Shown here: positions 9,482 to 13,934 of the stretch, in pieces
Numbering within the stretch: position 1 is the stretch's first letter
Layout of the letters: the number at the start of each line of letters is the position of its first letter
DNA from: Promethearchaeota archaeon
Lineage (GTDB): Archaea > Asgardarchaeota > Lokiarchaeia > Sigyniarchaeales > SOKP01
DNA: 64,000 bases
Direction: 5' to 3'
Assembly: GCA_016839705.1 (NCBI GenBank)
Contig: JAEOTR010000084.1
Location: 1 to 64,000 of the forward strand
The notes under the pieces: model-generated
The model's input: the letters and a program-made list of their open reading frames with translations, nothing else
Database searches by the model: none
What the model was told of the DNA's origin: nothing
Program-made: the position numbers and the translations under genes

Positions 9482-10788
9482 TCAATATTGTTCAGGAATT
9501 AAGAGTATAACTTTAGTGCCTTTAGTATAATCTCATTTAATTCGATCCTCAGCCCAGATAATTCCTTTAAAACTGTGTATAACTTCCCTAACAAGTAATA
9601 GACCTAAACCAATTCTTTTATGGTCTTTAGGTTTATCATAGATAGTAAAAAAATACTCTCTTTCATCTTTTCTGGCATCCCTATACCATTATCTATGAAT
9701 TCTATCCTTATATAGTTTATATCCTTTTCTTGGTGCTTAGAAATCTTTATCGTTATCTCTATTTCTGGATTATTGTTATATCGAATTGCATTATTTAATA
9801 ATATTCTAAAAACATCGTATAAAATTTCATTTGCATATACTTTTGTAGGTTTTTCCATCGAATTGAAATTGATCTTAATTTTTTTTTCTAGAAATCTTGT
9901 CTTCACATATTCTATTGCTTCTTCTAAGATACTCTCTACTTGAATTATTGCTTTTTGAATATCCCCTGATTATAGATCTGAGAGTTTTCTTACATTTACT
10001 CTAAGTTCCGCCCCTCGATTGACTTGGGTTTTAGCAAGATTTACTAGTTCAGTTATTTTCTTTTCATTTATTTGTTTCCCCGCTTCTTGAGCAATAATTT
10101 CCAATGAAAATTCTAAATTTTGGAGAATATTATTGATGTCATGAACAAAAAGATCTTTATAAAATTCCACTCTGTTATATGCTAATCGATATTTAGATTC
10201 CGATTTAATTATTCTATCTTCAATAAGAGCAACTAAACCAGTAAGAAGTATATTTGTTGCCATAACAGCTGAAGAAAATAGGAAAAATTCTTCTGCTCCT
10301 TCAACAACCACATCTCTCAATACTATAGCGATTAAATTTAATATCCCACCCATTAAAATAAAACACAAAAAAGCATGTGTGGGAGTCTTTTTCTTCAAAT
10401 AAATTCTGAAATTTAAAAATAGCGCAATAATCAATAATAAGCCAATTATTACTTGTAAACTAATTGATAGTATTAGCTGAAGACCAAATTGTAGAACTAG
10501 AAGAAGTGCCCCAGATTTAATAGGACGTATAAAACTATTGTAATATTCATAGGAAACAGCCACGATAATCAAGAGAAGAGTGAGAGATGAAAATATAAGA
10601 CCTGTTAGGTAATATGCATCATAATCTTCCTGAGATATTAACCTAAAAAGCTCAGAGATAGAACCTGCAATAAAAGCAAAGAGCCAAGAAAATTGATCTC
10701 GCCGTTAAAAACATACTCCTGCAAATAATATTGTCCCAAGAAAAAACATGCCTGTAATTGAAAGCTTAAACATAAAATAAGTAATCAT
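9482..10788 (-). pseudogene. membrane sensor histidine kinase pseudogene
   Basis: TM region, H-box (FVHDINNILQ), N-box (NNAIRY), G1 (DNGIG), G2 (IGLGL, shifted frame). Broken by an in-frame TAA near 10705, a TAA at 9970, a frameshift in a T run near 9650 and a TGA near 9535. Confidence 0.88.
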
Positions 10789-10985
10789 AATTATCGGTCT
10801 TAATCCTTCTAAATTTTTTTGCTAAAATACTAATAGAGTTAACTGTTTTAAATTTAAACCTATCCTAAGATAAGTGTTCCTCCTAAGAATAAGAATTTAT
10901 AGCTTAAATTCATAAAACTTTTATGATTTCACGTATTCTATTCCTTAATTAGAATATGAAAATATAGATAAAAAGAATTTAACAA

Positions 10986-10990
10986 GGTGA
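10986..10990 (+). promoter_or_regulatory. SD-like GGTGA, 7 nt before the putative ATA start of the EF-2 paralog
   Basis: aaGGTGAaaaacttATAgtc; in-frame TAA at 10980-10982 excludes an upstream start. Confidence 0.65.
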
Positions 10991-10997
10991 AAAACTT

Positions 10998-13280
10998 ATA
11001 GTCAAAGTAAAAAACCCAGAAGAAATTGCTCAACTGGTAACTTCTGGTTCTTATGATAAGAAAAGGATCTTCAGCATCACTGCTCATATTGATCACGGAA
11101 AGACTACCGCAACGGATTACCTATTAAGAAGAGCAGGATTAATGAGACCCGAGGATGCCGGACAGCTCCAAATGACAGATTCAGATTTAGATTAAGATCT
11201 ACTTGATCTACTGAAAGACGAGGAGCAAGCCCGCGGTATTACTATTTTTACAAGTGTAGTGTTACTAGCATTCAATGACTCTAGAAAACCAGATGATCCT
11301 GAACCTTATATTATTCAATTAAATGATACTCCTGGTCATATTAGTTTTACCGGAGAAGTATCGCGAGCTCTTAGAGGTAGCGATGGTGCTATAATTCTGG
11401 TTGATGCGCTTGAAGGTGTTATGACCCAAACAGAGACTAATATTCGTTTATCTGTTGGTGAGGAATACTGTAAACCAGTTTTATTCATTAACAAAGTTGA
11501 CCGATTGATAAGTGAATTGAAGTTAAGTCCTCAAGACACGTTTGCTAGAATAGACAAAATCACACGCGAAGTTAATGAACTTATAAGAAAAATTCGACCC
11601 GAAGGTTCTGATTGGAGTATTGACTTCGCTAAAAATTCTGTTGCAGTTGGTTCAGCAAAACATGGTTGGGGTTTTACTTATGAAATCTTACTCGAAAAGG
11701 GACTAAAACCACAAGATGTTTTCGCAAAATATAACGAAGGAGATATCCAATGGTTAAGGGATAATCTACCATTAGACGAACCCATGTTAAGAATGATTGT
11801 TGATCATCTTCCTGATCCTATTACCGCTGCTAAATACAGGATCCCTCATATATGGGGAGGTGACCTAAGTTCAGAACTTGGACAATCTCTCGTGAAGAGT
11901 GACCCAAATGGTCCACTTTATGGGATGATTACAAAAATTTTTCTCGATCCTAAAAGGAATTATCAAGCTACACTTATCGGTCGTGTTTTTTCAGGCACAT
12001 TTGACCAAACTGACTCAATATACTTAATTAATAGTGATTCAAGCAATCGGGTAAAGAGGTTAGGTGTTATGGAAATAACAGATCTTTTAGATATTTCTAG
12101 GATCCCTGCTGGAAACCTGTTTGCATTGTTTGGTTTTGTATGCCCTGCAGGTGAAACATTTATGTTAACAAATGATGTACCAAAGGATAAAGAAGAAAGA
12201 AAATTGTTGCATCCCTTTGAAAAAATTCAATACGCATGCGAAGCGGTTGTATCAAGAAGCATTAAACCAAAAGATCCACATGAAATTGATAAATTAGACG
12301 AAGTAGTTGGAAAATGGCTTAAAGCGAATCCCGAGGCAGAATACCGAAGAGATGAAGAATCTGGTGAATTTGTACTCTCTGGAATAGACCCTCTCCAAAT
12401 TGAAATCTTAACTAAGAGAATTAATAACCAAGTAGAAATAAGCATTGGAGAACCAATTATTATTTACAGAGAAAAAATTACGAAAAGGAGTCCTGAATTT
12501 CATACAAAATCAGCAAATACACACAATCGTATTTTGTTATACATCGAACCTTTAGATGAAACTACAGAAAAATTAATCGAAACTGGTAAAATAAATGATT
12601 TGCAAAGTGAAAAAGATAGAGCTCAAATACTTAGGGAAGATGCAGGATGGGATGCAAAAGAAGCAAGACGAATTGTTGACGTGTATCAAGGAAGTCTACT
12701 TGTGAATGGTACTTCAGGATTACAGAGATTTGATCGTGTAAAATCCTATTTGAGTGCTGCTTTTAGGGATTGGATTGGTAATTGTATAATTGCGAAAGAA
12801 CCTGCGACGGGTATTAAAGCCGTCTTTTTGGACATGACTATACATGAAGACCCCCGTCATACGCAATATGGACAGATTGCAGGTATGCTGTTCTCAGGTT
12901 TAGCACTTGCCATGTTGGATGCAGGTCCTCATCTGTTTGAGCCTGTACAGAGAATCGATATAAAAACGCCCCAAGGTACGGAAGGAGGTGTAACTGCAAT
13001 AATCTCTAAGCGTCGAGGAAGAATAACTAACGTTATTCCTGAAGGTGAATACGTTAGAATCAAAGGTCAGATTCCTACTGCCGAACAAATCGGCATTGCG
13101 GATGATATCCGAGGCTCAACTCAAGGAAGGGCATTTTTTGGCTACGAGTTTAAGGGATTTGAAAAAGTACCTGCTTCTTCAGAAGAAGATCTAATTTTAG
13201 AGATTCGCAAACGTAAAGGAATGGCACTAGAAATGCCAAATAGAAAGAGTTGGGAGCGTTTTATTTATAAACGGACCTAA
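10998..13280 (+). CDS. elongation factor 2 family protein, probably Asgard paralog aEF-2p; join(10998..11186,11217..13280), about 750 aa
   Basis: Upstream of the tracked ORF the same frame encodes G1 AHIDHGKTT and QMTDSD. After a 30-nt insert it continues DEEQARGITI, DTPGH, NKVD and domains II-V. Diphthamide loop is divergent (HEDPRHTQYGQI). Putative ATA start. Confidence 0.92.
11187..11216 (+). other. putative BHB-type 30-nt mRNA intron in EF-2 paralog
   Basis: Central helix TCAG(11181-84)/CTGA(11211-14); 3-nt bulges ATT(11185-87) and AAG(11215-17); 9-bp stem TAGATTAAG/CTTGATCTA with a 5-nt loop. Contains an in-frame TAA; removal gives MTDSDDEEQARGITI. Confidence 0.85.
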
Positions 13281-13335: not shown

Positions 13336-13934
13336 TTAAGAGAAACTGCTTATCTTAGCGATCATATATAATTTTTTCACTAGAGCTTGAAACGCATCGG
13401 TTACCCTTTGTCCTGTTAAAGCACTTGTTTTGTAATACCCTACAAATCTATTCTCTTTAGCAAATCGCTCTATATTACTATCTGATGTTGGTATATTTGG
13501 ATTCGAACCTAATTCCCCTTCATCAACCAAATCCACTTTATTTCCAAATAATACAATTGGTATATTCCCACAATGTGTTTTTAAGTCATTAAGCCATCTA
13601 GGAACATGTTCATAAGTCTGAGGTTGGTCATGAGAGTGAGAAAAAACAATTATAGCTCCACTACTCCCCGTATAGAATCTTTGGCGGAGTGCTTGAAAAG
13701 AATCTTGACCTGCTATATCCCAAAGATACAATTCAACTTTCTCACCATCAATAACCTCTTCATATTTAGAAAATTGCGTTCCAAGAGTTGAGATATACTC
13801 TTTCTGAAAAGCACCTTGAGTATATTTTTTGATTAATGATGTCTTTCCAACGGCTCCATCTCCAATAATTCCACTCTAAAGAATTTATTCAATAGATCTG
13901 TGATTTTGAAGCCGTAGCCTTTTTCAGTACTCAC
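13336..13934 (-). CDS. Rab/Ras-like small GTPase; complement(join(13336..13868,13898..13934)), 189 aa
   Basis: Spliced sequence MSTEKGYGFKITVIGDGAVGKTSLIKKY...YISTLG...WDIAGQ...GNKVD...KTSALTG is colinear with the neighbour paralog 14093-14647. The ORF track shows only the C-terminal part. Confidence 0.9.
13869..13897 (-). other. putative BHB-type 29-nt mRNA intron in Rab-like GTPase
   Basis: Minus strand aaaa-TCAC-aga-TCTA tt GAAT aa ATTC tt TAGA-GTGG-aat-tatt: 4-bp helix TCAC/GTGG (one G.U), 3-nt bulges AGA and AAT. Cutting after the second bulge base restores the frame and KITVIGDG. Confidence 0.85.

What the first reader, a model, noticed from the sequence alone, without database searches (positions are those of the whole stretch)
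11181..11217. 30-nt BHB intron with in-frame TAA in switch I of the EF-2 paralog
Genomic frame reads QMTDSD-LD*DLLDLLK-DEEQARGITI. Structure: TCAG(11181-84) pairs with CTGA(11211-14); bulges AT|T and AA|G; stem TAGATTAAG/CTTGATCTA (9 bp, one G.U); loop ATCTA. Removing 11187-11216 gives TDSDDEEQARGITI, the same spacing as the canonical EF-2 TDxxxxEQxRGITI. The outer exon-exon helix is weak (one clear U-A pair), so this is a relaxed BHB.
Basis: partly seen in the sequence, partly recalled or inferred. Interest (0 to 1): 0.93.

Follow-up and report, generated by a model that had tools for sequence, protein, structure and literature searches.

The report
tRNA-type mini-intron in Asgard EF-2
The gene for the essential translation factor EF-2 of this Loki-type Asgard archaeon is broken by a 30-base insert with a stop codon and the shape that the tRNA-splicing enzyme cuts, and three more genes in the same genome carry such inserts, so mRNA splicing, documented for only one archaeal protein gene in the papers I could search, is probably routine here, although no spliced RNA has been seen yet.

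Summary
Observation confirmed. The 30-nt insert (11187-11216) has an in-frame TAA. The bulge-helix-bulge (BHB) cut sites match exactly the only possible gap against intron-less orthologs. It occurs in 15 of 54 same-genus genomes and in further contigs, always 30 nt, with an invariant 4-bp helix and compensatory stem changes. The gene is under purifying selection (dN/dS 0.03-0.06).

Corrections: this is the canonical aEF-2, not the aEF-2p paralog, and the only EF-2 in the assembly.

Additions: the genome encodes EndA with the loop linked to relaxed BHB cleavage, and RtcB. Three more genes carry BHB inserts (two small GTPases, one IscU). Relatives carry 30-nt inserts at two other EF-2 sites. Presence is scattered on the gene tree (15 changes), and one allele looks like a lateral gain with 12 co-converted bases.

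Best reading (0.9): an EndA/RtcB-spliced mRNA intron. Splicing is not shown; the RNA contigs were uninformative. This scan noted the same kind of intron before on other DNA. In print I found only cbf5.

The parts
10984..10990 (+). Shine-Dalgarno-like site, 7 nt before the inferred ATA start
   Evidence: Sequence. ATA also stands at this position behind GGTGA in G063 and G074, where 58 other loci have ATG.
10998..11186 (+). aEF-2 exon 1 (63 codons; P-loop and first half of switch I)
   Evidence: Matches TIGR00490 positions 15-60; translation.
11165..11169 (+). 5' strand of the outer exon-exon helix (GCUCC)
   Evidence: Pair probability 0.91-1.0. Codons CAG and CTC in 21/23 and 22/23 intron-bearing alleles versus 8/36 and 6/36 intron-less ones.
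11181..11184 (+). Exonic strand of the 4-bp BHB central helix
   Evidence: Invariant and paired in 22/22 distinct alleles. The Ser codon is TCA in 23/23 with the intron and varies without it.
11187..11216 (+). 30-nt BHB intron: 1 nt, 9-bp stem with 5-nt loop, 4-nt helix strand, 2 nt; in-frame TAA at 11193-11195
11211..11214 (+). Intronic strand of the central helix
   Evidence: Invariant in 23/23.
11222..11226 (+). 3' strand of the outer exon-exon helix (GGAGC)
   Evidence: GAG GAG in 19/23 and 20/23 intron-bearing alleles versus 6/36 and 10/36.
11217..13280 (+). aEF-2 exon 2 (687 codons; rest of switch I, domains II-V with Loki-type canonical domain IV loops)
   Evidence: TIGR00490 positions 62-720, E 2.5e-171; loops.
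13869..13897 (-). Second BHB intron, 29 nt and frameshifting, in the convergent Rab-like small GTPase gene (about 13336-13934, minus strand)
   Evidence: Removal restores KITV-IGDG as in orthologs. Shared with G012, G027, G029 and G035, with stem variants.

Best explanation
The insert is a genuine archaeal BHB intron in the mRNA of the canonical, presumably essential aEF-2. In the pre-mRNA the insert folds into a 9-bp hairpin, and its last bases pair with the exonic TCAG. A 5-bp helix between the exons holds the two exon ends together. The tRNA-splicing endonuclease EndA, which here carries the Crenarchaea-specific (L1) loop that permits relaxed motifs, cuts after nt 11186 and 11216. RtcB joins the exons and restores switch I. 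Unspliced mRNA gives only a 65-aa stub. Shown here: the anatomy, the exact gap, conserved pairing, purifying selection, and the presence of both enzymes. Inferred: cleavage, ligation and translation of the joined mRNA. The intron looks like a tolerated, repeatedly gained and lost passenger rather than a required regulator, since about two thirds of congeners lack it. It belongs to a set of 27-36-nt BHB inserts in conserved motifs of several genes.
For: Exact, unslidable gap against 36 intron-less alleles. 15 of 54 genus genomes carry it, and so do 10 metagenome contigs and 16 GTDB records, partly overlapping. 95% of cells paired; central helix invariant; G-C to A-U in 5 alleles; U-A to A-U in 3; covariation 0.094 versus 0.059 +/- 0.007, 0/500 shuffles, with the caveat that kin are not independent. 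The loop varies freely. Synonymous exon sites that pair are tied to the intron, while the unpaired Thr wobble nearer to it is free; 10 of the 14 associated codons among 749 lie within -8..+7. dN/dS 0.03-0.057 for G000, median 0.052 among intron-bearing pairs. One private change at an otherwise invariant column. Only EF-2 in the assembly. EndA alpha has the catalytic Tyr/His/Lys and a loop aligned to the A. pernix CSL with its Lys (PMC5829648, PMC6379350); RtcB is present. The same geometry recurs at two other EF-2 sites, in two small GTPases, one insert being frameshifting, and in IscU.
Against: No spliced RNA seen. The three metatranscriptome runs are held as contigs, and none spans the junction at strain identity. 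The one RNA contig that leaves the reference at 11186 may come from an intron-less relative. The 3' bulge is not a strict 3-nt bulge in the predicted ensemble. No EndA beta subunit was detected in this 93%-complete assembly. The start codon is an unusual ATA.
Confidence: 0.9

Rival explanations
1. Recoding without splicing: the ribosome reads through the TAA, adding 10 residues to switch I, or hops from the Asp codon before the stop to the Asp codon after the hairpin, as in T4 gene 60.
For: The insert is 30 nt and in frame. In G000 a GAT precedes the stop inside a hairpin and a GAC follows the insert.
Against: The would-be take-off codon varies among Asp, Asn, Glu, Val and Ala, and the stop among TAA, TGA and TAG. 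The insert conserves pairing, not residues. The sister insert in the neighbouring GTPase is 29 nt. The 4-bp helix to the exon has no role in readthrough.
Confidence: 0.03
2. Dead or split gene: the insert inactivates aEF-2, or a 65-aa and a 673-aa piece (restart at GTG 11259) work together.
For: Databases call two ORFs here. The start codon is ATA. aEF-2p exists in congeners.
Against: dN/dS about 0.04. The 14 codons between the insert and the GTG are conserved as protein although a split gene would not translate them. aEF-2p lacks the translocase loops (PMC6143161). ATA also starts the intron-less G074 allele. The same insert persists across alleles about 23% divergent.
Confidence: 0.03
3. A DNA-level palindromic element that is excised from the chromosome in part of the population, or an intron removed by an enzyme other than EndA.
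For: Presence and absence differ among close relatives. A DNA contig with the joined form exists in the same sample.
Against: That contig has other codons than G000's exon 2, so it is a relative. There are no target-site repeats or recombinase sites. G.U pairs and U.U mismatches are tolerated as in RNA. The cut sites obey the BHB two-nucleotide rule in every insert family examined.
Confidence: 0.04

Closest known systems
BHB intron of the cbf5 (aCbf5 pseudouridine synthase) pre-mRNA in Desulfurococcales and Sulfolobales (PMC2738675)
   Same: Short intron inside the coding sequence at a catalytic motif; relaxed BHB at the borders; cut between the second and third bulge bases; host EndA of the CSL type; patchy gain and loss; misannotated as split genes.
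   Different: Other gene (canonical aEF-2, switch I), other phylum (Asgard), at least four genes per genome and three sites in one gene. cbf5 of this genome is uninterrupted. cbf5 splicing is shown by cDNA; this one is not.
Non-canonical BHB (HBh') tRNA introns of Asgard and Thermoproteales (PMC11291895; bioRxiv 10.64898/2026.10.13.758758; PMC5829648)
   Same: Size, BHB borders, repeated gains, same enzymes. tRNA genes of G000 appear to carry introns outside the anticodon loop.
   Different: The substrate is an mRNA. A word search of the preprint found no mention of mRNA or cbf5. Here exon pairing must be met through synonymous codons.
Mobile BHB introns of archaeal rRNA genes with LAGLIDADG homing endonucleases (own knowledge)
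   Same: Patchy distribution, conserved target motifs, and a hint of flank co-conversion.
   Different: No endonuclease ORF in the intron and no convincing one next to EF-2. The three LAGLIDADG hits in G000 lie inside two long ORFs elsewhere, one MCM-like, probably inteins.
Lokiarchaeota aEF-2 and aEF-2p (PMC6143161)
   Same: The host gene has the H-T-Q diphthamide loop and the modified second loop of canonical Loki aEF-2.
   Different: The paper reports no intron. The gene is not aEF-2p.

Membership tests
Archaeal BHB (EndA/RtcB) intron | 4-bp central helix between exon and intron | tested here: met
   Four Watson-Crick pairs, p 0.98-1.0, invariant in 22/22.
Archaeal BHB (EndA/RtcB) intron | 3-nt bulge closed by an intron helix (Bh') | tested here: met
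   Bulge 11185-87, 9-bp stem with compensatory changes.
Archaeal BHB (EndA/RtcB) intron | Strict second 3-nt bulge closed by an adjacent exon helix (canonical hBHBh') | tested here: not met
   Only one possible adjacent pair, not favoured in the ensemble; an outer helix lies beyond a 10x3 internal loop. Relaxed HBh', a recognised form (PMC5829648).
Archaeal BHB (EndA/RtcB) intron | Cuts after the second bulge base give the exact exon junction | tested here: met
   Equals the unslidable gap against 36 intron-less alleles.
Archaeal BHB (EndA/RtcB) intron | Host has an EndA able to cut relaxed motifs, and RtcB | tested here: inconclusive
   Alpha subunit with L1/CSL loop and Lys and RtcB present; beta subunit not found; activity not testable.
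Archaeal BHB (EndA/RtcB) intron | Spliced RNA exists in the cell | tested here: inconclusive
   RNA contigs do not span the junction at strain identity.
Archaeal BHB (EndA/RtcB) intron | Cleavage by EndA in vitro | not testable with these tools
   Needs a bench assay.
Canonical Lokiarchaeota aEF-2 | Domain IV loop 1 keeps H701, with T702 and Q/S703 | tested here: met
   HEDPRHTQ (PMC6143161).
Canonical Lokiarchaeota aEF-2 | Loop 2 retained, K584 not conserved | tested here: met
   SANTHN.
aEF-2p paralog | Loss of both domain IV loops, including H701 | tested here: not met
   Met instead by the 729-aa, 33%-identical copy of four congeners.
Homing-endonuclease-encoding mobile intron | Encodes or neighbours a homing endonuclease | tested here: not met
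   30 nt long; the neighbours seen in 23 loci are not endonucleases, apart from one loose motif match that I did not confirm.

The most novel reading that the evidence does not exclude
A Lokiarchaeia lineage runs general mRNA splicing through its tRNA-splicing enzymes. A mobile class of about 30-nt BHB micro-introns, with no endonuclease of their own, invades conserved motifs of several genes (aEF-2 at three sites, Rab-like GTPases, IscU). It spreads laterally between co-occurring species with short co-conversion tracts, and it reshapes nearby synonymous codons into a helper helix.
Probability: 0.5. Interest if true: 0.87.

Novelty: new variant of a known kind. Interest (0 to 1): 0.76.

Why it matters
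[quoted passage not shown] An intron in the only translocase of an Asgard archaeon, with three more in the same genome, would make EndA/RtcB an obligatory step of protein synthesis in close relatives of eukaryotes. It would offer a prokaryotic parallel, by analogy only, to RtcB-dependent XBP1/HAC1 splicing. Gains and losses between close species make the open question of how BHB introns arrive testable on protein genes, where synonymous sites record co-conversion. In practice these genes are mis-called as fragments, which affects EF-2 phylogenies and inventories of Asgard small GTPases.

Tried and rejected
Read laying on three metatranscriptome runs and one DNA run: contigs only. One RNA contig leaves the reference at 11186, but it cannot be told from an intron-less relative, so it is not used. 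A protein search for spliced fragments returned no RNA-derived junction, only stubs ending at the stop. Rfam: no match. The promoter and terminator scan gave nothing beyond chance and does not cover archaeal promoters.

Structure-only genome scans are dominated by noise: 7963 folds, and a family-pattern scan gave 17 real versus 28 control hits. Candidates C29:9244 and C88:93282 lie in intact ORFs and were dropped, and C43:10190 has no supporting homolog. Only paralog- or ortholog-validated candidates were kept, so four introns is a lower bound.

A single gain inherited without loss is rejected (AU p 0.004). An ancestral intron with many losses is not excluded. No EndA beta subunit was found. 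cbf5, EF-1alpha and aIF5B of this genome are uninterrupted. I did not show that the inserts derive from tRNA introns; I only looked at 12 tRNA-like loci. Eight literature searches found no report of this intron; the library lacks most subscription papers.

Full report
Observation. TCAG 11181-84 can pair with CTGA 11211-14. ATT 11185-87 is the 5' bulge. A 9-bp stem (11188-96 with 11202-10) closes a 5-nt loop. The TAA lies at 11193-95. Cutting after the second base of each bulge removes 11187-11216. The joined frame runs without a stop from an ATA at 10998 to 13280, 750 codons. The two exons match adjoining parts of the aEF-2 profile TIGR00490, 15-60 and 62-720. A Logan DNA contig, possibly from the source sample, carries the insert with no difference. 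The fold alone proves little, since a loose scan finds 7963 such folds in this AT-rich genome. The proof is comparative.

Host and gene. Matching records are titled Promethearchaeota, so this is a Loki-type Asgard archaeon. The gene is not the EF-2 paralog. Narrowe et al. (PMC6143161) define the bona fide aEF-2 of these archaea by H701 kept, R702 to T, G703 to Q or S, and loss of K584; aEF-2p lacks both loops. The window protein has HEDPRHTQ and SANTHN. The second, 33%-identical copy in four congeners has neither loop. That copy is absent from the G000 assembly, together with orthologs of its neighbours, which suggests an assembly gap. The interrupted gene is the only EF-2 present.

Comparative evidence. 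Of 54 genomes in the genus, 15 carry the insert at this site. So do contigs from other studies, including the Loki's Castle record LAZR01 (identified from my own knowledge) and lineages that branch outside the genus sample. Fourteen loci from other families of the order lack it. Across 23 intron-bearing and 36 intron-less alleles the insert is always 30 nt, and the gap cannot slide. The central helix never varies. The inner stem shows G-C to A-U in five alleles and U-A to A-U in three, and 95% of cells pair. The covariation score exceeds all 500 shuffles, though related sequences inflate that test. The loop varies freely. Further variants keep pairing while the stop changes to TGA or TAG. The gene is not decaying: dN/dS is 0.03-0.057 for G000 against six relatives, with medians of 0.052 among intron-bearing and 0.038 among intron-less pairs. 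The odd ATA start also occurs in G063 and in the intron-less G074.

RNAfold does not favour the single U-A pair next to the 3' bulge. It pairs 11165-69 with 11222-26 at p 0.91-1.0. The four synonymous positions in this helix take the pairing base in 19-22 of 23 intron-bearing alleles but in only 6-10 of 36 intron-less ones. The unpaired Thr wobble closer to the intron is free. Ten of the 14 codons (of 749) associated with the intron lie within -8..+7. I read this as selection for a clamp that holds the exon ends together. Hitchhiking contributes too, since unpaired sites at 0, +3 and +5 are also associated.

Machinery. G000 encodes an EndA alpha subunit whose best structural relative is A. pernix EndA. 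The catalytic residues and the Crenarchaea-specific loop with its Lys align. That loop confers cleavage of relaxed motifs and is reported for Asgard EndA (PMC5829648, PMC6379350). RtcB is present. I found no beta subunit.

Not a single case. Relatives carry 30-nt inserts of the same geometry at two other EF-2 sites: in the P-loop (five alleles) and six bases upstream of this site. My own scan with paralog validation found two more. One is a 30-nt insert in a small GTPase on C97, shared with five congeners. The other is a 27-nt stop-containing full BHB (-32 kcal/mol) in an IscU gene on C85. G068 has an unrelated 36-nt BHB insert at the same IscU position. The scan only sees genes with a paralog or a fetched ortholog, so four is a lower bound.

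History. On a tree built from the gene beyond the intron region, the trait needs 15 changes, at least 11 forced by strong branches. This is not clearly fewer than shuffles give (130 of 500), and one clade is rejected (AU p 0.004). G063 and G012 are identical for 138 nt after position +12. They differ by the intron and by four third positions in the first 12 nt. G063's intron and its flank (-24..+11) equal those of G001, which is about 25% divergent elsewhere, while G012 matches its intron-less sisters. That points to a lateral gain with a short co-conversion tract. It is one case, chosen after the fact, from MAGs. Intron distance also tracks gene distance weakly (Mantel r 0.31, p 0.016), so vertical descent with losses plays a part. 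No homing endonuclease was identified. These EF-2 genes are mosaic, so ordinary recombination between congeners may suffice. The route of spread remains open.

Mechanism and rivals. Most likely (0.9), EndA cuts the pre-mRNA after 11186 and 11216 and RtcB ligates the exons. Anatomy, gap, covariation, selection and enzymes are shown; cleavage and ligation are inferred. Readthrough or ribosome hopping fails on the variable take-off and stop codons and on the 29-nt sister insert. A dead or split gene fails on dN/dS and on the conserved codons between the insert and the next start. DNA excision lacks repeats and a same-strain joined allele. A regulatory role cannot be excluded, but most congeners live without the intron. 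RNA evidence is missing: the RNA contigs do not span the junction at strain identity.

Novelty. Eight searches found no paper on this intron. The 2009 cbf5 paper names cbf5 as the only confirmed archaeal pre-mRNA splicing and says others were predicted. A 2026 preprint on Asgard tRNA introns reports repeated gains by unknown routes and does not mention mRNA. This scan's earlier notes describe the same kind of insert in EF-2 and EF-1alpha of other genomes; they are unchecked AI notes and are not counted as support. Verdict: a new variant of a known kind, works like the cbf5 intron, strong comparative support, splicing unproven. Interest 0.76.

Noticed in passing
window 13869-13897 (-): 29-nt frameshifting BHB insert in the Rab-like GTPase next to aEF-2; shared with G012, G027, G029, G035.
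   Followed up: yes
G000:C97:90070-90099 (-), locus L139: 30-nt BHB insert just before the P-loop of another small GTPase; similar inserts in G066, G067, G077, G034, G019.
   Followed up: partly
G000:C85:74326-74352 (+), locus L141; G068 locus L145: 27-nt stop-containing full BHB insert in an IscU/NifU_N gene; G068 has an unrelated 36-nt BHB insert at the same codon position.
   Followed up: partly
L018, L070, L094, L095, L110 (P-loop); L151-L156 (6 nt upstream of this site): Two further EF-2 intron sites, both 30 nt with the same 1+9+5+9+4+2 layout. The upstream site sits in a CAGAT tandem repeat, and the L155 insert ends like the present one, as if it had slid by 6 nt.
   Followed up: partly
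window 10998-11000: ATA start codon for aEF-2 behind a Shine-Dalgarno-like site; also in G063 and G074, with GTG or TTG in three other genomes.
   Followed up: partly
G000 assembly: aEF-2p and orthologs of its usual neighbours are missing, probably an assembly gap; ARAGORN finds only 18 tRNAs, and some tRNA genes seem to carry introns outside the anticodon loop (C49 near 6187, C92 near 56681).
   Followed up: partly
window 9604-10572 (-): A histidine-kinase-like gene appears split into two ORFs (membrane/HisKA-like part and HATPase-like part); frameshift or decay not examined.
   Followed up: no
G000:C49:91992-92498 and C88:110251-110487: LAGLIDADG domains inside two long ORFs, one MCM-like; probably inteins.
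   Followed up: no
L061, L067 (G007): The G007 assembly breaks exactly at the intron, with the insert at the end of two contigs; it may reflect mixed intron-bearing and intron-less strains.
   Followed up: no
EF-2 genes of G063, G012, G029: Strongly mosaic divergence along the gene (0-35% by 150-nt window), pointing to frequent recombination among congeners.
   Followed up: partly
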